Assembly: GCA_051251855.1 (NCBI GenBank)
Contig: JBPOGI010000003.1
Coordinates: 320,001 to 384,000, forward strand
DNA from: Roseibacillus sp.
GTDB lineage: Bacteria > Verrucomicrobiota > Verrucomicrobiia > Verrucomicrobiales > Akkermansiaceae
Reading direction: 5' to 3'
DNA length: 64,000 nt
Below are positions 10,182 to 18,457 of the stretch, piece after piece (the first letter of the stretch is position 1; every line of letters begins with the position of its first letter). The notes beneath the pieces were generated by a model. It was not told the origin of the DNA and did no database searches. It saw only the letters and a program-made list of their open reading frames with translations. Both the position numbers and the translations under genes were made by a program.

Positions 10182-10874
10182 TTAAGCGGCTTCGAGAGGC
10201 GGCATGCTGCGTCTGCGCAGGAAGGCCATGAACCCTGTGATGGCGAGGAGGAGGGCGACCAGTTGGTAGCCGGAAAGGCCGAGGAAGGGCTTGGGGGTGG
10301 CGCGGAGGAATTCGTGGGCGAAGCGGAAGAGGCCGTAGCTGATGAGGTAGAGGTGGAAGTGTTGGTTAGGAAGGAAGTGGAAGCGGCGGAAATTGAAGAA
10401 GGTAAGAAAGGCGAGGAGGTTGAACGTGATTTCGACCGGGACGGAGGGCCAGTAGTTGAGGGGACCGAGTTCGCAGGCGATGCCGCGACAGCAGCCATGG
10501 TGCAGGCAGCCAAGGCGGCCGACGATGAGGGCGAGGGGGACGACAGCGGCGAAGCCGTCTCCGGTGGCTTTGTGATAGCCGAGGACTTTCTTGGCGAGTT
10601 CGACCCCGATGAAGCCGCCGAGCAACGCTCCGGTGACGGACTTGCCGGTGAGCCAGTGGAGAAGACGCTGGTCTGAGGCAGCCACGAGCCAGCCTTCAGA
10701 GAGAAGGTAGGCGAGCTTGGCTCCGATGAAGGCGCAGGCGAGGGCGGCTCCGTAGATGAGCGGAATGAGGGGGTCGCTTTTGCTACGACGAATCCAGTAG
10801 ATGGCAGATCCGATGATGCCGATGAGCATGGTCAGAGCGTAGATGGGCGAGCCTTCTGAAAGAGTTGTTGGCAC
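10182..10874 (-). CDS. Divergent prolipoprotein diacylglyceryl transferase (Lgt)-family protein
   Basis: Multi-TM protein with IGAKL, GALLGG, D...P...GRLGCLHHGCCRG and YGLFRFAHEFLR (Lgt RF..EF.R). Start placed at GTG 10874 to avoid overlap with the upstream gene. Confidence 0.85.
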   Translation of the reverse strand: MPTTLSEGSPIYALTMLIGIIGSAIYWIRRSKSDPLIPLIYGAALACAFIGAKLAYLLSEGWLVAASDQRLLHWLTGKSVTGALLGGFIGVELAKKVLGYHKATGDGFAAVVPLALIVGRLGCLHHGCCRGIACELGPLNYWPSVPVEITFNLLAFLTFFNFRRFHFLPNQHFHLYLISYGLFRFAHEFLRATPKPFLGLSGYQLVALLLAITGFMAFLRRRSMPPLEAA

Positions 10875-10887
10875 GAAGTTTTCGATT

Positions 10888-11211
10888 CTAGTTAGAAATA
10901 GAAAAAGCCAAGCAGCCGTAACTGCCTGCACTGAGGCAGAAGAGGACCTCGACAAAGGGGTAACCAATCGCGCACAAGGTCATTTGCCGACCTCGAAGGC
11001 GTTTTGAAAGATTTCTGCCAAAGTAACCCCAGCAGATGAAGATGGAAAGGAGGAGGATGACCCCAGTCCAGTCAGAAAAAGCGGAGGATTGAATCTTGGT
11101 TGAGAGGAAGAGAAGGAGAATAGTGAGAAAGGGCGGGGCCAGAAGAGAAATCCAGAGACCCTTCGTGCTGAAGCCTTCGTAGAGGAGAGGGCCTGGGGTG
11201 GGTTCGGTCAT
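10888..11211 (-). CDS. Small 3-TM protein ending ...SYGCLAFSISN (orfC)
   Basis: 107 aa, three hydrophobic segments, ATGA overlap with the upstream gene. Confidence 0.75.
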   Translation of the reverse strand: MTEPTPGPLLYEGFSTKGLWISLLAPPFLTILLLFLSTKIQSSAFSDWTGVILLLSIFICWGYFGRNLSKRLRGRQMTLCAIGYPFVEVLFCLSAGSYGCLAFSISN

Positions 11212-11735
11212 TCGAGTTCCGCTGGTTCAGAAAGGGTGGTGGGACCATCGATTGGTTCTTCGACTGATTGAAGGTCGTGTCCGGTGCCTTTGATCGCTTC
11301 TTCCATTCTCTGCCTGGCTTCTTCTAATTCGACAGGATCGATGGGGTCTTCTCTGGCGCGTCTTTCTTGCTCTTCCACCCAGCTGTCGGGGGCGCTGTGT
11401 CCCCAGTTGCCTTCCCACGAAGTGAGGCAGCCGAAAAAGAAAAGGGTGACGCAGATGGCGGCTTGCACAAGGGGATAGGCGATGAGGCAGATCACATATC
11501 CCGCAGTTGGCATCCGCTTGAAGAGCGCGAAACCGAAAAGAATCCATCCTGCGATGACGGCAAGACTGCCTAAAATAATGGAAGTCGAGATGAAGTCGAA
11601 TTTGAGATGAGCAAAGGCGAGGCCGGTTAGGAGAGCCATCAAAGCGATGGGTCCCATGAGAGCAAGCCAGAGAAGCTTGTGGTTGATTTTTTTCCTCTCG
11701 GGAAGGCTGGGTGGGTTTGCGAGTTGTTCGTTCAC
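11208..11735 (-). CDS. 3-TM protein with FFGC motif and acidic C-terminal tail (orfB)
   Basis: GTG at 11735 gives MNEQLANPPSLPERKK, three TM helices, then FFFGCLTSW. Similar to orfC (YPLVQ vs YPFVE ... GCL). Confidence 0.75.
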   Translation of the reverse strand: MNEQLANPPSLPERKKINHKLLWLALMGPIALMALLTGLAFAHLKFDFISTSIILGSLAVIAGWILFGFALFKRMPTAGYVICLIAYPLVQAAICVTLFFFGCLTSWEGNWGHSAPDSWVEEQERRAREDPIDPVELEEARQRMEEAIKGTGHDLQSVEEPIDGPTTLSEPAELE

Positions 11736-11790
11736 GGGAGGAATTCTATCGGCTAAAAATGGAGTTGGCGAGGTCTCGGTGTGCAGGAAT

Positions 11791-13146
11791 TTACTCCAAT
11801 CCGTAGTAGCGGCAGAAGGAGTCGAGTTTGCCGTCGGGGCGGATGACGTGGGTGCAGCAGCGGTCGATGCGGTCGTCGTCCCAAGTGGAGGCATCCATGA
11901 AGGGCTTGATGAAGAGGCGGTAGGTGTCCTTTTCGCGGAGCTCGAATTTCTTGAGGATTTCGCCCAGCTCGGTGTTGTCGCAGCCGCATTGCACGAGGTC
12001 TGAGAGGTTGTATCGAATCTTGTCCTGCAAGAATCCCTGCACTTTTGCGAAGTCGAAAAAGTGGGAAACGCTACGCGTGCCGAGGGGGGTCTTGAGCAGG
12101 TAGCCGATGGTGGCGCAGTTTGGATCGCCACAGGGCAGGGGAGTAAAGTCGTCGGGCCCGAGTTCTTCTCCCGATTGTTCCATCAAGCCGAGGATGACGT
12201 CCGCTGTATTGAGGCGCCGCTCTTGGGCGTGGGTGCGGCCAGAGTGGAACATGGGTTGAAAGGACACTCCGCGACAGCTCTCGAACTCGAGACCGAATTG
12301 CACTGTCTCCCACAAGTGGGGAAGGTTCTCGGGAGTGACGGTCATGGCGAGGGTGACGGGGAGGTCGATTTCTTCGCAGTTGGCGAGAGCCTTCTTCTTC
12401 ATGGTGCGCAAGTCGGAGCCACGGAGTTCGACCTGGCCTGCTTCTTGGGGGCCGTCGAATTGGAGGTAGAGCTGGATGTGGCCTCGGTCCGTGCGTTTGG
12501 AGAGTTCTGTTAGGAAGTCTTTGTCGCCAGCGAGTTTGACGCCGTTGGTGTTGATGAGGGCATAGTCGATACGGGGTTCGTCGTGAATCCAGTCTAACAA
12601 TTCGAAGAACTCAGGATGGAGGGTAGGCTCGCCTCCGGAGAGTTGGAGGAGTTCGATGTGGCCTTTACGATCGAGGACTCCGGTGATGCGCTGTTGCAGG
12701 GCGGCGAGGGAATGATACTTGAGGCGCTCGCCGGTGCCGGCGGGGGAGTCGGCGAAGCAGGTGGGGCAGGCGAGGTTACAGGAGTCGACGATCTCGATGA
12801 GAGCGAGACAGGTGGAGAGTTGCTCGATGGTGTCGGGTTGGCCTGCGTTTTTACCTAAGGTTCCTGGGAGACCTGCGGAATCTGCGGGGGAGCAGGCGCA
12901 ACCGGGGCCACAGCGGTTGTCGTCGGAGCCTTGTGCGAGCCAGTAAAAGCGGGCATCGGAGGAGATGAGGGAAGTGGAGGAACCGTGCTCGGGGCAGGTG
13001 CGGCGGAGATGGACCTCGGATTTACCGGAGTCAGTGTTGAGCTTGAGGACTTCGGCTGGCACGCGGGTATGGCATTCCGGACAGCGGGAAGTGGTGCGTT
13101 TGAGTTCGCGTGGATCGCGGGAGAGGATGGGTGGGAGGTTGTTCAT
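11791..13146 (-). CDS. Radical SAM protein, COG1964 / tetraether synthase (Tes, GDGT-MAS)-like
   Basis: N-terminal CPEC...CPEHG metal site, CNLACPTCF radical SAM motif, LSGGEPTLHP, INTNG and YLQFDG, then C-terminal FMD...RCCTHVIRPDGKLDSFCRYY. Confidence 0.88.
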   Translation of the reverse strand: MNNLPPILSRDPRELKRTTSRCPECHTRVPAEVLKLNTDSGKSEVHLRRTCPEHGSSTSLISSDARFYWLAQGSDDNRCGPGCACSPADSAGLPGTLGKNAGQPDTIEQLSTCLALIEIVDSCNLACPTCFADSPAGTGERLKYHSLAALQQRITGVLDRKGHIELLQLSGGEPTLHPEFFELLDWIHDEPRIDYALINTNGVKLAGDKDFLTELSKRTDRGHIQLYLQFDGPQEAGQVELRGSDLRTMKKKALANCEEIDLPVTLAMTVTPENLPHLWETVQFGLEFESCRGVSFQPMFHSGRTHAQERRLNTADVILGLMEQSGEELGPDDFTPLPCGDPNCATIGYLLKTPLGTRSVSHFFDFAKVQGFLQDKIRYNLSDLVQCGCDNTELGEILKKFELREKDTYRLFIKPFMDASTWDDDRIDRCCTHVIRPDGKLDSFCRYYGLE

Positions 13147-13508
13147 AAAGAGAAGAGCATACACCCGAAGCCGATGGAAAAAACCACAGCGGGAGCGACG
13201 AGAATTTGGAGGAGACAGAAGATGAGTGTTTTCCAAGCCACCGAGCCTAGGGTTACACATTCACTGCCGTCTTCGGCTGTGATTTTTAGAATAGCGGCAA
13301 AGATGCCGCTACCCAAAAGAACGAACACTAAAACAAACCAGAAGCCGAGTTCGACGAGGTTGGGATTATGGCTGGCACGGTAGGTGAAAACGTAGGAGAG
13401 GAAAGCGAACCCAATGAAAGAGGCTCCCGGGAGAATCCAGCAGAAAAAAGTTAACCACGCATGTGCAGCAGTTGGCTGAGGTCGTGGAGGTGGAGGGGGG
13501 CTTTCGAT
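13143..13508 (-). CDS. Small 3-TM protein ending ...IGFGCMLFSL (orfA); start codon uncertain (ATC?)
   Basis: Frame is open from 13574 to 13143 and reads IESPPPPPRPQPTAAHAWLTFFCWILPG...FSIGFGCMLFSL. Its stop overlaps the radical SAM start (ATGA). The first canonical start is GTG 13328. Confidence 0.6.
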   Translation of the reverse strand: MESPPPPPRPQPTAAHAWLTFFCWILPGASFIGFAFLSYVFTYRASHNPNLVELGFWFVLVFVLLGSGIFAAILKITAEDGSECVTLGSVAWKTLIFCLLQILVAPAVVFSIGFGCMLFSL

Positions 13509-13574
13509 AGTAAGATGATAACTCCCGAGTTTCCTCTGTCGAAATTGATTTCTTCGATGAAGGGATTGAATGGA

Positions 13575-14663
13575 TCAATCAGAGTTCTCGCGCTGCCACC
13601 TCGCTTCGAAATCACCTTTCGACTTTACCCAGCCCACAGCTAAGACTTTTTCAATTTCGAATTGTCGTCGTCGGGCGTCATCAGGGTGACTTTTGAGTTG
13701 AAGAGTCATCCGTTTCTCCGCGGTGAGTTCGCGGGTAAGAATTCTCTCGGTGACTGAGCCAGCGGCTGCGTAGGCAGTGACAGCCTCTTGCTCAAGATCT
13801 GGGCTGGTGAGGCGGTAGGCGCGCCAGAGCCTTTCATCCGCAAAACGAAAATTGTAGTAGCTGTCTGGGATGGCTTGGATACGAACCTCGGCGGATTCCT
13901 CTGTTCGCTTGATACTTGGGTTTTCGGTTTCTTCTAACCAGTGAGTGAGGGCCCTGCTGTGTCGGGCGTAGGCCTCCCAATCGACTTTGGGGCCGTCATC
14001 GGTTCTTACCACGAAGAGGATGCGGGCATCGCCGTTTGCGAATCGGGTTTGGTAGCGTTCGATGCTGAGATCTCCCGCAATCACTTCGCCCATGGGCTTG
14101 CCCGAGACCCCGACTTCAGAAACAGCTTGGGGTGGGAAATTGGGAAGGAGAGTAGCGATACGTTCGGGGTCGAGGCAGTGCTTGAGACGTTCATTAACAT
14201 CGTCGGTTTTGGCAAATGCCATCGCCACGACATGGGGCAAAGGGCCTTCCACGGGGGTGAGATTCATGGCCGCGATCTCGTCGTCCATGGTTTGCTCAGG
14301 GACTGAGGAAGGGGATGTCTCGGCGACTTCTTTTCTGTTTTTTAGGAAAGAGAGAAGGAGAGCTCCGAGGATAAATAATGAAACAAGGGCAAGAGTGAAG
14401 ATGAGCCACTTCGGAGCTTTGGCTTCGACTCTGCTGCTGCCATCGGTCCATACCCCCTTGCGCGATTTTCTAGCTCTTCTTTGTTCGACAACGGGAGCCT
14501 GTTTTTGATGTTTCGAACGGTTCTTGTATGGTTTTGCGGGAACTTGCTGGGGAGCGTTCGCTTGCGCTGACTGGCATTTTTTCTCGTTGGATTTTTGCCA
14601 AGAAGCATTCGAGCGATCGGGTCTTTCCAAACCCCTTCTTTCTTCAAGCTTCCGAATCTTCAT
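13575..14663 (-). CDS. Membrane-anchored hypothetical protein
   Basis: 362 aa with a basic N-terminus, one TM helix and a C-terminal domain containing GPKVDWEAY. Confidence 0.75.
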   Translation of the reverse strand: MKIRKLEERRGLERPDRSNASWQKSNEKKCQSAQANAPQQVPAKPYKNRSKHQKQAPVVEQRRARKSRKGVWTDGSSRVEAKAPKWLIFTLALVSLFILGALLLSFLKNRKEVAETSPSSVPEQTMDDEIAAMNLTPVEGPLPHVVAMAFAKTDDVNERLKHCLDPERIATLLPNFPPQAVSEVGVSGKPMGEVIAGDLSIERYQTRFANGDARILFVVRTDDGPKVDWEAYARHSRALTHWLEETENPSIKRTEESAEVRIQAIPDSYYNFRFADERLWRAYRLTSPDLEQEAVTAYAAAGSVTERILTRELTAEKRMTLQLKSHPDDARRRQFEIEKVLAVGWVKSKGDFEARWQRENSD

Positions 14664-14726: not shown

Positions 14727-14795
14727 TTGTTAATCCACGTCAATTCAGTTTAATTTTAAGTGGAGTGTGGTGAGGTGTTCCTTGTTCTCACTAGT

Positions 14796-15920
14796 ATGCG
14801 TAAAAAAATCATGTCGATTTATCAATTCGGGACTTTCTTGACTGTTCTTTTTGTCTCTCTGTCGTGTTCGAGTTGTCGTGAGCAGGAAGAGAGCTCAGTG
14901 ATTCCGCCGGAGAGAGAGCCTGAGGTGGTTTTTCAGGTGCCGGTGCCTGAACTCCCTGAGTTGGATTGGCAGACTGTAAGGGCCTTCAATCTTCCTTTGA
15001 ACAATCCGCCCCACGTTTGGCCAGAAGAGGCGGTGTTCATGCGAAAAAGTGACATCGTCTTGGGGGTGCTCCTCGGCGATGAGGCGAGAGCTTATCCTTG
15101 GGATCTCTTATCAAACTTTCATGCAGTGAATGACTATCTGGATGGTCAACCCATCATTGTCAATTTGTGCGAAGCTTGTAATGGGGGGGCTGCTTTTTTG
15201 GCTACTTTGCCCGACACGGTGATCGATATTCGTCCCCGAGGTCTGAAAAACGGAACTTGGTATGGAGTCGATTTTCAAACTGGGAGTCTCTGGTACCCTT
15301 TTGTGGGGGAGGCGTTCGAGGGGCCGTTGAAGGGGACGAAATTAGAGCGCATTCGAGTCTATTTTTCGAGCTGGGGAGACTGGATTCGTGACCATCCTAA
15401 TTCATCAGTGGTAATGACCTCTCATGAAGTGAAAATGCGGCCTCACGCGCGCCAAAGCCGGATGGCCGATCCTTCCACATTTAATCCTCAGTATTTGAAA
15501 CGAATCGTCAGAGCGCAAAAGAATCCTAGGCGCTCCCTCTTACCTGGGAATACTTTGGTCTTTGGCCTTATTCCTAAAGAGGGGGAGCCGGCGCGGGCCT
15601 TTACCGTTGAATCGTTGGGTGACACCAAGTCTCTCGTTCAGACGAGTCTGAGCGACACGCCTATCGTGCTGTTGTTGCAGAATCGCTATCAGATTGGAGC
15701 GTATCAGCGACTTTTCAAAGGGCAGGAGCTCAAGTTCGAGCTCACATCCAAAACTCCCTTGGTGATGAAGGACCAGCTGGGTAATCGCTGGGATATGTGG
15801 GGGCGGACTCTTGCGGGGCCGAATCATCCTAGCGAATTGGAATTGGCGGATGGCTATCTGGCAAAATGGTATGAGTGGATTGAGAACTTCCCAGAAACAG
15901 AGGTTGTTAAGGTTGAATAG
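14796..15920 (+). CDS. DUF3179 domain lipoprotein
   Basis: ARAYPW...HAVND...CEAC motif, D..TGSLW and W.DW...HP.S. Lipoprotein-like signal (LSCSSC). Confidence 0.8.
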   Translation: MRKKIMSIYQFGTFLTVLFVSLSCSSCREQEESSVIPPEREPEVVFQVPVPELPELDWQTVRAFNLPLNNPPHVWPEEAVFMRKSDIVLGVLLGDEARAYPWDLLSNFHAVNDYLDGQPIIVNLCEACNGGAAFLATLPDTVIDIRPRGLKNGTWYGVDFQTGSLWYPFVGEAFEGPLKGTKLERIRVYFSSWGDWIRDHPNSSVVMTSHEVKMRPHARQSRMADPSTFNPQYLKRIVRAQKNPRRSLLPGNTLVFGLIPKEGEPARAFTVESLGDTKSLVQTSLSDTPIVLLLQNRYQIGAYQRLFKGQELKFELTSKTPLVMKDQLGNRWDMWGRTLAGPNHPSELELADGYLAKWYEWIENFPETEVVKVE

Positions 15921-15972
15921 AAGGGCGACCTTTCATCTGTCTGTTGGATTTTGATTCTAAAATTCTTGCTAA

Positions 15973-15986
15973 TACAATTTCATGCA
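15973..15986. promoter_or_regulatory. Candidate operator (same motif, reverse orientation)
   Basis: Reverse complement reads TGCATGAAATTGTA; upstream of the CRTAC1-family gene. Confidence 0.4.
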
Positions 15987-16075
15987 ATTCAATAGCCTTC
16001 GGCTAAATTGAAAGGTTGAGTCTGTTCTCGGCTTTCAAAAATCTTTTCTACTCATTCTCACCTCTCAAAAATCGC

Positions 16076-18457
16076 ATGAACTTTCTGATTTATTCCTGTG
16101 TTCAGCTTCGTTCCTCATTGGTTCGTAGCCGTTTCTTCCTTTGCACTCTTATTGGGTGGGGAATGGTGTTGGCTTTCTCCTCCTTGTCGATTGTCTATGC
16201 GGAGGTGATCTCGGCAGAGCCCCAAGAAATTTTAGAAGAGCGAAAGGTGCTGGATGAGACCGTCTGGGAGGACGAGGTGGAGGCGCAAGAATATGAAACC
16301 GTTTTTGTGAGTCTTTGGGATCGGATTCGTGATGAAGACGGGCCTTTCAAGCTTTCGATTCTTGCTGACTTTCCTTTCAACGGTGAACTGACGATGGGAA
16401 CGCGGGGGAAGGCGGAACCGCTGGAACAGGGAATGACCCAAACCTACTTTGAGAACGAGACGCTGCAGACTTTCACCGCTTCGAAGTGGCGTAATTATGT
16501 TCGTGCTTTCAAAGCAGCGGGTATCGAGGTGGTTCAGACCGAATGGCATCATAGTCGGTTCGTGCCAGGCACGGAGACTTCGGCTCCCAAGTCTGAAATC
16601 TCTTTTGCGATTCACGCCAAGCGCGAGTCGACGCAAACGGCCTTCGCCTTCAAGGGTGAGCTTGAGGTGCAATGGTCAAAAGACGATCCGAGCGAACGAT
16701 TGGATGGCGCGGTGCCTGATTCTCTCACGGTCACGAAGCTCAAGATGAAAGAGCGGACGGGCGGCGGAGGTTTCAATCAAATTTGGGAAGCGCGGCATGG
16801 TCGGGAGGACTGGATCTCAGCCTATCCGATTCTGGCCTACGATCTGGATGGGGACGGGCTTTCTGAAATCATCCTTCCTCGCTGGAATCGGGTCTACCGG
16901 AATATGGGTGATCGCGAGTTCAAGCGGGAAGACTTTCTCGCTCATCCTGTTGATATCTGGGAAGCGGCGATTCTTTCGGACTTTAACGGCGATGGTCATG
17001 TTGATTTCGTGACGGTGGGGAAAGATGGTTCCCCTTATTTCTTTGCTGGCACGGCAGAGGGTAAGTTCCCAACCGAGGGAAAAGTCTGTGCGGATGTTCA
17101 CTTTGATATGCCGACTTCAGTGACGGCGGGCGATGTCGATGGCGATGGCGACCTCGACCTGTGGATGGCGCAATACAAGCTCTCTTTCATGGATGGTCAG
17201 ATGCCCACTCCCTACTATGATGCGAATGATGGCCCTCCCTCCTACTATCTGGAAAATGATGGGAACGGTTCCTTCATTGAAAAGACGGAGAGTGTTGGCC
17301 TAGCTCCTTTGCGCAACCGACGAACCTACTCAGCATCCTTCGTCGATCTTGATGAGGATGGCGATCTCGATCTGATGAATGTTTCCGATTACGCGGGCCT
17401 CGATATCTATGAGAACACGGGGAAGGGCCAATTCGAACTCGCGACCGAGGACTATGTCGATCAGCGCCACTTCTTTGGGATGGGGCATACGATCGGGGAT
17501 TATAATGCGGATGGGTTGCTCGACTTTTACGTCATAGGGATGTCTTCCACCACGGCCCGTCGATTGGACCGGCTGAATCTTGGGCGCGAGGACCGACCCG
17601 ACGTGCATCCGATGAGGGGGCCGATGGGCTATGGCAATCGCATGTATTACGGGACCAACGAAAAGAGTTTTCAGGAGGATAAGGAAGTGGCAGGTGCGGT
17701 GGCACGGACGGGATGGTCTTGGGGCACGACGAGCTTCGACTTTGATTTAGACGGGGATCAGGACATCTATGTGGCGAATGGACACCGGAGCGGGAAGTCT
17801 TGTTCGGACTATTGCTCGACCTTTTGGAGGCATGATATCTATACCGGTGACTCGAAGGCGAACCCGCTTCTGTTAGAAGTGTTTGCGACCACTCTCCAGG
17901 ACCTGAATAAGGATGAGGTGTCTTGGAATGGGTATGAGAAGAATGTTCTGTTCGTGAATCACGAGGACCGGAGTGAGCGCTTTGTGAATGGCTCCTTCAT
18001 GTTCGGCGCGGCGCATTCCTACGATGCGCGCTGTGTGATTTCCGACGACTTGGATGGTGACGGGCGTCCGGATTTGATTGTGGCGGAGTCCAAGTGGGAT
18101 GGCCGTGGTTCCGCTCTCATCATTCGCGCCTTTGGCAACGATGTCGAAATCGATCCGGACAACAATTGGATTTCGATTCAACTTAGAGAGTCTGCCGGCG
18201 CGGGACACTCTCCCAATGGAGCGAAGGTCGCGATTACCGATGATTCCGGGCGTGTGCAGACGAAGTGGATTGTGAGCGGGGACTCGTTCTTGTCCCAGCA
18301 TGCTCCGGTGGCTCACTTTGGTTTAGGTCATGTTAAAGGAGTAAAGTCTGTGGAAGTGACTTGGCCGAATGGGAAGATCGAGAAGCATGATGCTGATTCT
18401 TCGGTGAATACGATGCTAACTTTGCGGGGCAGCGAGCTGAGTTCATCTTCGGAGTAG
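16076..18457 (+). CDS. CRTAC1 family protein (FG-GAP/VCBS repeats plus ASPIC/UnbV domain)
   Basis: Repeated D-x-D-G-D-G-x-x-D motifs, GWSWG...DFDLDGDQDIYVANG, and C-terminal GDSFLSQ...HFGLG...VTWPNG. Start codon uncertain. Confidence 0.88.
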   Translation: MNFLIYSCVQLRSSLVRSRFFLCTLIGWGMVLAFSSLSIVYAEVISAEPQEILEERKVLDETVWEDEVEAQEYETVFVSLWDRIRDEDGPFKLSILADFPFNGELTMGTRGKAEPLEQGMTQTYFENETLQTFTASKWRNYVRAFKAAGIEVVQTEWHHSRFVPGTETSAPKSEISFAIHAKRESTQTAFAFKGELEVQWSKDDPSERLDGAVPDSLTVTKLKMKERTGGGGFNQIWEARHGREDWISAYPILAYDLDGDGLSEIILPRWNRVYRNMGDREFKREDFLAHPVDIWEAAILSDFNGDGHVDFVTVGKDGSPYFFAGTAEGKFPTEGKVCADVHFDMPTSVTAGDVDGDGDLDLWMAQYKLSFMDGQMPTPYYDANDGPPSYYLENDGNGSFIEKTESVGLAPLRNRRTYSASFVDLDEDGDLDLMNVSDYAGLDIYENTGKGQFELATEDYVDQRHFFGMGHTIGDYNADGLLDFYVIGMSSTTARRLDRLNLGREDRPDVHPMRGPMGYGNRMYYGTNEKSFQEDKEVAGAVARTGWSWGTTSFDFDLDGDQDIYVANGHRSGKSCSDYCSTFWRHDIYTGDSKANPLLLEVFATTLQDLNKDEVSWNGYEKNVLFVNHEDRSERFVNGSFMFGAAHSYDARCVISDDLDGDGRPDLIVAESKWDGRGSALIIRAFGNDVEIDPDNNWISIQLRESAGAGHSPNGAKVAITDDSGRVQTKWIVSGDSFLSQHAPVAHFGLGHVKGVKSVEVTWPNGKIEKHDADSSVNTMLTLRGSELSSSSE

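What the first reader, a model, noticed from the sequence alone, without database searches (positions are those of the whole stretch)
10182..13508. Candidate lipidation / lipid cross-linking operon: Tes-like radical SAM, divergent Lgt and three Gly-Cys membrane proteins
Seen: five co-oriented genes in the order orfA, rSAM, orfB, orfC, Lgt-like. There are ATGA overlaps at 13143-13146 and 11208-11211 and short gaps elsewhere. Known: the rSAM architecture (CxxC...CxxH N-terminal site, CxxxCxxC, C-terminal RCC.H...PDG...FC.Y) matches archaeal tetraether synthase Tes/GDGT-MAS (MJ0619, COG1964), which joins lipid tails by C-C bonds. Lgt enzymes attach diacylglyceryl groups to a Cys at the end of a membrane helix. 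Inference: the Lgt paralog lipidates the Cys of the co-encoded 3-TM proteins and the rSAM cross-links or modifies the acyl chains. The product would be a membrane-spanning lipid anchor or a modified lipopeptide. I know of no characterised bacterial pathway of this kind.
Basis: partly seen in the sequence, partly recalled or inferred. Interest (0 to 1): 0.88.

Follow-up and report, generated by a model that had tools for sequence, protein, structure and literature searches.

The report
Lgt paralog, Tes-like enzyme, cysteine proteins
A spare, altered copy of the enzyme that puts lipid anchors on bacterial proteins travels with a relative of the archaeal enzyme that welds lipid tails and with small membrane proteins whose one conserved cysteine is kept only where the two enzymes are present, which points to an undescribed way of attaching an unusual lipid to proteins.

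Summary
The five genes, their order and both ATGA overlaps are real; orfA has no ATG. They form one instance of a widespread cassette with no description found in eight paper searches. An Lgt-like gene lies beside the radical SAM gene in 62 of 80 related loci (nine phylum labels overall), two natural Lgt–rSAM fusions exist, and the two genes co-occur in 24 of 121 family genomes with two exceptions. New here: relatives of orfA carry the helix-end Cys in 27 of 32 cassette-adjacent copies and in 0 of 16 copies from genomes where neither enzyme was found. The rSAM has the Tes fold (Z 39.5) but is not Tes: below cut-off, separate branch (100/99), Met439 and Tyr459 replaced. It keeps the three presumed C-terminal cluster cysteines, which another cassette subclade has lost, so tail cross-linking is not assured. 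The Lgt paralog keeps Arg143 and Arg239 but lacks His103 and Asn146. Best reading (0.5): the rSAM modifies a phospholipid tail and the paralog transfers that lipid to the Cys. No activity is shown. The scan noted this module before on other DNA (9 findings).

The parts
13515..13542 (-). Promoter-like element (-35/-10) ending 6 nt before the ATC of orfA
   Evidence: 10 of 12 consensus matches; the spacing, an upstream AT-rich motif and the ATC are kept in 4 of 4 same-genus genomes aligned; function not shown
13143..13508 (-). orfA, 121 aa from a probable ATC start, 3 TM, Cys116 at the end of TM3, 5-residue tail; presumed substrate
   Evidence: no Pfam or NCBIfam family over cut-off
11791..13146 (-). 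Tes-fold radical SAM enzyme, 451 aa, PVC subclade of the Lgt-linked branch
   Evidence: PF23545 + PF04055; TrsS 204/490 and Tes 159/450 bits; model vs 7TOM Z 39.5, rmsd 2.5, 389 aligned; tree
11208..11735 (-). orfB, 175 aa, 3 TM, Cys103 followed by a 72-residue acidic tail with a conserved motif; presumed substrate
   Evidence: G102-C103-L104 and ten tail residues invariant in 9 of 9 homologs, C83 and C95 not
10888..11211 (-). orfC, 107 aa, 3 TM, Cys100, paralog of orfB; presumed substrate
   Evidence: (E 1e-8 to orfB, Cys aligned); narrowly fails the rule tests
10182..10874 (-). Lgt paralog, about 230 aa, no head domain; keeps the G142/R143/G154/Y235/R239/E243/R246 equivalents, His103 to Thr, Asn146 to Cys, Lys at the Met100 position
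   Evidence: PF01790 74.8 bits; model vs 5AZB TM 0.63, the only hit under E 0.001; residue table; canonical Lgt elsewhere in the genome, 238 bits

Best explanation
A dedicated protein-lipidation cassette. (1, inferred) The cytoplasmic Tes-fold radical SAM enzyme pulls a phospholipid into its pocket and abstracts a hydrogen from an acyl tail. In this subclade it most likely joins two tails (macrocyclic or membrane-spanning product) through the retained C-terminal cluster. (2, inferred) The Lgt paralog selects that lipid and transfers its glyceride to the Cys at the outer end of the last helix of orfA, B and C. Each last helix acts as an internal signal: basic cytoplasmic loop, hydrophobic helix, (G/A)-x-C. 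(3, inferred) The proteins stay in the membrane, probably uncleaved, because the motif is not a standard lipobox. Shown: gene linkage, fusion, co-occurrence, folds, residue patterns and co-variation of the Cys with the enzymes. My odds: paralog acts on that Cys about 0.7; rSAM acts on lipid tails about 0.6; C-C tail coupling specifically about 0.3.
For: Lgt-like gene on the same strand in 62 of 80 loci, 51 within 500 nt. Two fusions, P0150 and P0200, with C-terminal motifs of different subclades. Both genes in 24 of 121 family genomes, one gene only in 2. Helix-end Cys test: 112 of 148 cassette ORFs vs 25 of 195 genome controls, Cys-moved mean 47.6, max 65 in 200. Cys in the last 16 residues: 101 of 148 vs 12 of 195. 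Net positive charge before the helix in 82 of 101. Cys present in 27 of 32 cassette-adjacent orfA relatives, 0 of 16 in nine genomes where neither enzyme was found. R143, R239, G142, G154 equivalents in 80 of 80 paralogs. Tes fold; Tes binds bacterial phospholipids (PMC9433317, passages). Presumed C-cluster cysteines kept in 30 of 30 PVC-subclade enzymes.
Against: No activity data. His103 and Asn146, both essential in E. coli Lgt (PMC13251419, passages), are replaced; the five commonest residues at the His103 column are T, V, L, M, E (75 of 80). C430 and C445 are lost in 31 of 31 enzymes of the broadest subclade, and the N-terminal cluster motif in 30 of 30 of this subclade, so no one Tes-like cofactor set is shared. 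The nearest sister branch sits with methyltransferases, not Lgt. 36 of 148 cassette ORFs, orfC among them, fail the strict test. 6 of 9 dispersed copies in enzyme-bearing genomes lack the Cys. In G094 and G067 the three parts are unlinked. Topology is inferred from charge only, and the orfA loop before TM3 is not net positive. Kin genomes are not independent.
Confidence: 0.5

Rival explanations
1. The radical enzyme itself forms the bond to the protein: a lipid-tail radical is captured by the Cys thiol (thioether), and the Lgt paralog only binds and presents lipid or protein.
For: The paralog lacks His103 and Asn146. Tes passes through a lipid-sulfur intermediate (PMC9433317). The C-cluster ligands are dispensable in one subclade, while C113, C339 and C431 are kept in 81 of 81 cassette-branch enzymes.
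Against: Charge pattern puts the Cys on the outer face, away from a cytoplasmic Fe-S enzyme. R143 and R239 are invariant in 80 of 80 paralogs, as expected for catalysis. His103 is replaced by Y, W or F in working Lgts (PMC13251419).
Confidence: 0.2
2. Lipopeptide pathway: after lipidation, signal peptidase II cuts before the Cys and releases short lipopeptides (orfA, orfC) or a 73-residue lipoprotein (orfB) that act in signalling or conflict.
For: orfB tail motif invariant in 9 of 9. Small genes vary in number (1 to 4 per locus), diverge fast (orfA 38-49% vs rSAM 88-94% within the genus) and have lower GC3. The genome has an Lsp. DAG-RiPPs are a precedent (PMC13056109, abstract).
Against: Only 3 of 101 motifs fit the canonical lipobox and 58 of 101 have a small residue at -1. 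Most tails are 2-14 unconserved residues. No recurring peptidase or exporter neighbour. The 3-TM body persists without the Cys.
Confidence: 0.12
3. Bulk membrane-spanning or macrocyclic lipid synthesis, as for Tes; the other genes are accessory.
For: Tes fold; bacterial Tes homologs were proposed for this role (PMC8941075, passages).
Against: The acidobacterial proteins that pass the Tes cut-off keep Met439 and Tyr459, branch apart and have no Lgt-like neighbour (0 of 28 at 1.5 kb, 0 of 7 at about 4.5 kb). Tes homologs did not track diabolic acid producers (PMC13159169, passages). It does not explain the Cys co-variation.
Confidence: 0.08
4. Thiol, metal or metalloid chemistry akin to the TrsS and methyltransferase-linked relatives; the Cys is a metal or redox site.
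For: TrsS is the best-scoring NCBIfam model; sister branch with methyltransferases; a permease of the ArsP family follows two Chloroflexota loci.
Against: One Cys at a helix end is a poor metal site; the constant partner is an Lgt fold; TrsS members branch apart.
Confidence: 0.1

Closest known systems
Tetraether synthase Tes / GDGT-MAS (MJ0619; PDB 7TOL, 7TOM; NF045702)
   Same: Whole-chain fold (Z 39.5, rmsd 2.5, 389 aligned), rubredoxin-like CxxC..CxxH site, radical SAM motif, three presumed C-cluster cysteines (C344, C430, C445; mapping inferred)
   Different: 159 bits vs cut-off 450; separate branch; Met439 to Lys414, Tyr459 to Val434; N-terminal cluster motif absent; extra conserved Cys; linked to an Lgt paralog, which was not seen beside 28 over-cut-off acidobacterial Tes loci
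Lgt, phosphatidylglycerol:prolipoprotein diacylglyceryl transferase (E. coli, PDB 5AZB; PF01790)
   Same: Fold (TM 0.63); G142, R143, G154, Y235, R239, E243, R246 equivalents
   Different: His103 to Thr, Asn146 to Cys, Lys/Arg at the Met100 position in 74 of 80, no head domain; a canonical Lgt exists elsewhere in the genome; presumed targets have an internal or C-terminal (G/A)-x-C, not an N-terminal lipobox
TrsS radical SAM (seleno)protein (NF045646) and the methyltransferase-linked branch
   Same: Same family; best NCBIfam score (204 bits); C113, C339, C431 mostly shared
   Different: Below the cut-off of 490; TrsS branches apart; methyltransferase partner instead of Lgt paralog plus Cys proteins
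DAG-RiPPs (PMC13056109; abstract seen)
   Same: Ribosomal products that receive diacylglycerol on a Cys beside a dedicated modifying enzyme
   Different: They use an N-terminal signal peptide, the host lipoprotein pathway and an MNIO enzyme; here the Lgt is dedicated, the Cys is internal and the enzyme is Tes-like
Second Lgt of Mycobacterium smegmatis, MSMEG_5408
   Same: Reported Y26H and N146C (PMC13251419); N146C is in 77 of 80 and Y26H in 27 of 80 cassette paralogs; a Mycobacterium branderi record has the full cassette
   Different: Its neighbourhood was not examined here, so membership is a lead only

Membership tests
Tes / GDGT-MAS | NF045702 score at or above 450 bits | tested here: not met
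   159 bits
Tes / GDGT-MAS | Four-domain fold with rubredoxin-like site and radical SAM core | tested here: met
Tes / GDGT-MAS | N-terminal [4Fe-4S] motif CxxxCxxCxxH | tested here: not met
   0 of 30 in this subclade; 21 of 21 Tes rows, four of them duplicates
Tes / GDGT-MAS | Met439 and Tyr459, fully conserved in archaeal homologs | tested here: not met
   Lys414 and Val434; both residues are dispensable for activity in vitro (PMC9433317)
Tes / GDGT-MAS | Three Cys ligands of the C-terminal cluster | tested here: met
   C344, C430, C445 in 30 of 30; identity of the ligands inferred from conservation, not read from the structure
Tes / GDGT-MAS | Groups with Tes in a tree | tested here: not met
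   Branch 100/99 separates 17 cassette rows plus 2 methyltransferase-branch rows from 5 acidobacterial Tes and 4 TrsS rows; no archaeal sequence was in the tree
Tes / GDGT-MAS | Joins terminal carbons of lipid tails | not testable with these tools
   needs an assay
TrsS | NF045646 score at or above 490 bits and clade membership | tested here: not met
   204 bits
Lgt fold family (PF01790) | Pfam cut-off and fold | tested here: met
   74.8 vs 24.9 bits; 5AZB
Canonical Lgt | TIGR00544 cut-off 118.9 bits | tested here: not met
   31.9 bits
Canonical Lgt | Essential Y26, R143, G154, R239 | tested here: met
   numbering transferred through the genome's canonical Lgt and the motifs in PMC13251419
Canonical Lgt | Essential H103 (or Y/W/F) and N146 | tested here: not met
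   Thr and Cys
Canonical Lgt | Transfers diacylglyceryl from PG to a Cys | not testable with these tools
   needs an assay
Bacterial lipoprotein | N-terminal signal peptide with lipobox [LVI][ASTVI][GAS]C (pattern recalled) | tested here: not met
   Cys is at the end of TM3; 3 of 101 family motifs fit the pattern
DAG-RiPP | MNIO enzyme and signal-peptide precursor | tested here: not met
   no such family among the five genes
Known anti-phage system | PADLOC model | tested here: inconclusive
   only weak viperin hits over the radical SAM core

The most novel reading that the evidence does not exclude
The radical enzyme joins two phospholipid tails into a membrane-spanning or macrocyclic lipid, and the Lgt paralog couples it to the Cys, so the small proteins are covalently riveted through the bilayer. 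This would be a new post-translational modification spread over at least nine phyla and the function of a large share of the unexplained bacterial Tes homologs.
Probability: 0.3. Interest if true: 0.92.

Novelty: categorically new. Interest (0 to 1): 0.76.

Why it matters
It gives a testable function to two long-unexplained gene classes: bacterial Tes homologs, which have been invoked as sources of branched tetraether lipids used as climate proxies, and second Lgt copies. It also sorts Tes homologs by context, since the Lgt-linked branch is separate from proteins that pass the Tes cut-off. If right, bacteria have a second, dedicated lipidation route that acts on an internal cysteine of polytopic membrane proteins, possibly with a radical-made lipid. 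Substrate residue, both enzymes and point-mutant controls are all named, so one expression experiment can decide it.

Tried and rejected
Tes or TrsS membership: rejected. Housekeeping Lgt: rejected, a canonical copy lies on another contig. Chance Cys: rejected by genome controls, Cys-moved controls and the enzyme-free genomes; the Fisher tests overstate because kin are not independent and are not used. Expression: no RNA holder listed. Complex prediction of the Lgt paralog with orfA: never ran, so no verdict. ESM Atlas for orfC: only unnamed clusters at 0.91-0.92, recognition below the useful level. Pfam and NCBIfam give no family over cut-off for orfA/B/C or for four relatives (Pfam). PADLOC: nothing specific. 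A sequence search of the PDB missed Lgt; the fold search found it. The first 100-row tree did not finish; replace it. Recurring neighbours beyond the three parts: none general. Eight paper searches listed no description of the cassette; the library lacks most subscription papers, and I read no supplements (the bacterial Tes tree of PMC8941075 and Fig. S8 of PMC13251419 may bear on novelty).
Full report
OBSERVATION. Five ORFs lie on the minus strand: orfA (13143 to about 13508), a 451-aa radical SAM gene (11791-13146), orfB (11208-11735), orfC (10888-11211) and an Lgt-like gene (10182 to a GTG at 10874). Both ATGA overlaps are present. Named homologs at 79-87% identity place the host in or near Roseibacillus, Verrucomicrobiota. 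orfA, B and C each have three hydrophobic segments, the last ending in Gly-Cys. orfB and orfC align at E 1e-8. A profile from 48 proteins of other genera ranks all three first among 46,577 genome ORFs. orfA has no ATG, GTG or TTG before its first helix.

THE RADICAL ENZYME. It matches PF23545 and PF04055. NCBIfam gives TrsS 204 of 490 bits and Tes 159 of 450. The model (pLDDT 87.6) aligns to Tes 7TOM at Z 39.5, rmsd 2.5 over 389 residues; the next entry scores 18.9. In a 28-row IQ-TREE tree, 17 Lgt-linked enzymes and 2 methyltransferase-branch enzymes are split from 5 acidobacterial Tes and 4 TrsS rows at 100/99; a 120-row FastTree agrees. No archaeal sequence was in either tree; the Tes stand-ins pass the NF045702 cut-off and one hits 7TOL at 470 bits, against 126 for this protein. 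Met439 and Tyr459, fully conserved in archaeal Tes but dispensable in vitro (PMC9433317, passages), are Lys414 and Val434. The N-terminal cluster motif is absent in 30 of 30 enzymes of this PVC subclade. The three cysteines that I take as ligands of the C-terminal cluster (C344, C430, C445; inferred from conservation) are kept in 30 of 30 here, 21 of 21 Tes rows (four duplicates) and 8 of 8 TrsS, but C430 and C445 are lost in 31 of 31 enzymes of the broadest cassette subclade. C113, C339 and C431 are kept in all 81 cassette-branch rows. So the enzyme is built like Tes and is not Tes, and the cassette does not share one Tes-type cofactor set.

THE LGT PARALOG. PF01790 scores 74.8 bits and TIGR00544 31.9 of 118.9. 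A canonical Lgt (238 bits) and an Lsp lie elsewhere in the genome. The model (pLDDT 95) has 5AZB as its only hit under E 0.001 (TM 0.63). Across 80 cassette paralogs the G142, R143, G154 and R239 equivalents are invariant, Y235 is in 78, N146 is Cys in 77, the five commonest residues at H103 are T, V, L, M and E (75 of 80), and Lys or Arg occupies the Met100 position in 74. PMC13251419 (passages) lists Y26, H103, R143, N146, G154 and R239 as essential in E. coli, places M100 at the substrate cleft, and notes N146C in Leptospira Lgt and MSMEG_5408. The paralog thus keeps the phospholipid-binding arginines and has a remodelled cleft.

LINKAGE. An Lgt-like gene lies on the same strand in 62 of 80, within 500 nt in 51; one of the 62 (L111) is a canonical-type Lgt beside the methyltransferase branch. 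Of the 18 without, 11 have under 3 kb on one side, three are in the methyltransferase branch, and four have the paralog elsewhere in the genome (a fifth genome tested, with a cut locus, had none). Linked loci carry nine phylum labels, including annotated Bacteroidota and Mycobacterium records. Two of 150 representative proteins are Lgt-rSAM fusions. In 121 family genomes, 24 have both genes, one (84% complete) only the paralog, and one only an rSAM fragment. Control: no Lgt-like gene beside 28 acidobacterial over-cut-off Tes loci at 1.5 kb, 7 of them refetched at about 4.5 kb, nor beside 7 of a mid-scoring class or L167; 5 of 5 loci of the low-scoring class have one (these 20 regions were my pick from the places listed).

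THE SMALL PROTEINS. From 106 loci (four methyltransferase-branch loci and two duplicates dropped), rule-based calling found 148 small membrane ORFs chained to the enzymes in 91 loci. 112 have a Cys after a hydrophobic run with G, A or S at -1 or -2, against 25 of 195 control ORFs of this genome and a mean of 47.6 (max 65 of 200) when cysteines are moved at random. 101 of 148 have such a Cys within the last 16 residues, against 12 of 195. orfA and orfB pass the strict test; orfC narrowly fails both. The 18 residues before the helix are net positive in 82 of 101, which by the positive-inside rule (general knowledge) puts the Cys on the outer face, where Lgt works. Only 3 of 101 fit the canonical lipobox (pattern recalled). 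In orfB, G102-C103-L104 and a tail motif are invariant in 9 of 9 homologs while its other two cysteines vary.

NATURAL EXPERIMENT. A profile of 29 orfA-type proteins matched 31 of 121 family genomes. I fetched the matches not already held. The Cys is present by rule in 25 of the 29 profile rows (27 by eye) and 2 of 3 further cassette-adjacent copies. It is present in 0 of 16 copies from nine genomes where neither enzyme was found (two copies are fragments; one genome is 79% complete; absence rechecked with a broad profile). Dispersed copies in enzyme-bearing genomes have it in 3 of 9, including the best hit in each of the two genomes where the cassette is split. The profile was built mostly from Cys-bearing rows, so its bias works against this result. 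Kin are not independent, but the enzyme-free genomes span five genus codes. This is the best evidence that the Cys exists for the enzymes. It also shows that the three-helix body persists without it.

MECHANISM. Shown: linkage, fusion, co-occurrence, folds, residue patterns, Cys co-variation. Inferred: an Fe-S and SAM enzyme works in the cytoplasm and cannot easily reach a Cys on the outer face, so it probably acts first, on a phospholipid tail; Tes itself co-purifies with two E. coli phospholipids (PMC9433317). The paralog then transfers the modified glyceride to the Cys. In this subclade the retained C-terminal cysteines allow Tes-type tail coupling. I give this scheme 0.5, rSAM-made thioether 0.2, cleaved lipopeptides 0.12, thiol or metalloid chemistry 0.1 and bulk lipid synthesis 0.08. 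What the modified proteins do is open; fast divergence (orfA 38-49% vs rSAM 88-94% within the genus), copy number of 1 to 4 and low GC3 hint at surface or conflict roles.

AGAINST. No activity, expression or binding data; two residues essential in E. coli Lgt are replaced; cofactor ligands differ between subclades; 36 of 148 ORFs fail the strict test; the cassette is split in some genomes; the orfA loop before TM3 is not net positive.

LITERATURE AND NOVELTY. Eight searches listed no paper on this gene set. Passages seen: PMC8941075 (456 bacterial Tes homologs, function hypothetical), PMC13159169 (Tes homologs do not track diabolic acid producers), PMC13459092, PMC9433317, PMC13251419, bioRxiv 2025.01.07.631728 (MSMEG_5408 may prefer another lipid, speculative), PMC8939145 and PMC13188914 (nothing on the cassette). 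Abstract only: PMC13056109. No supplements were read. The scan's own notes hold 9 findings of the same module in other genomes (8 shown); they are not independent support, and one gave the fusion lead that I then tested.

VERDICT. A real, widespread three-part cassette with no description found, most likely a dedicated lipid-to-cysteine modification system using a radical-modified lipid. Interest 0.76.

Noticed in passing
window 13508-13545, - strand; L002, L004, L005: orfA lacks ATG; an ATC stands where paralogs have ATG, 6 nt after a -10-like hexamer, in 4 of 4 same-genus genomes with the gene. Possible leaderless ATC start, which could limit the translationally coupled rSAM.
   Followed up: partly
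window 11743-11771 and about 10885-10890, - strand: TAGAAT hexamers sit just before the GTG starts of orfB and of the Lgt paralog, and no clear Shine-Dalgarno sites are seen; the genes may have their own starts.
   Followed up: no
L090:6365-7458 and L109:6352-7427: In two anaerobe loci an ICMT/PEMT-family methyltransferase and a DUF4395 gene lie between the rSAM and the Lgt paralog, recalling methylation of lipidated C-terminal cysteines.
   Followed up: partly
L155-L161, L147, L152: A frequent acidobacterial Tes-like class (about 305-345 bits on NF045702) has Trp after the Met439 column and no Lgt neighbour; a third, unexplained subfamily.
   Followed up: no
L081, L086, L091, L096, L106, L116, L117: In Alphaproteobacteria the Cys ends the first of two helices, and in some Planctomycetota it lies between helices, so it is not always C-terminal.
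   Followed up: partly
L035, L087, L088, L102, L111, L036: Related enzymes paired or fused with SAM methyltransferases (L111 also with a CMD domain), including a haloarchaeal plasmid.
   Followed up: partly
L005 / L038 (G051), L024 (G068), L025 (G043): rSAM genes with an internal stop, a split or only fragments: decay of the cassette or assembly errors.
   Followed up: no
L037:4343-7536: A Mycobacterium branderi record holds the full cassette; MSMEG_5408 has the same reported substitutions and may belong to it.
   Followed up: partly
window 13575-14663, - strand: 362-aa single-helix protein with no family hit directly upstream; a homolog precedes the cassette in L004 too.
   Followed up: no
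window 14760-18457, + strand: DUF3179 gene followed by an FG-GAP/ASPIC-UnbV repeat protein; DUF3179 genes also flank the haloarchaeal relative.
   Followed up: no
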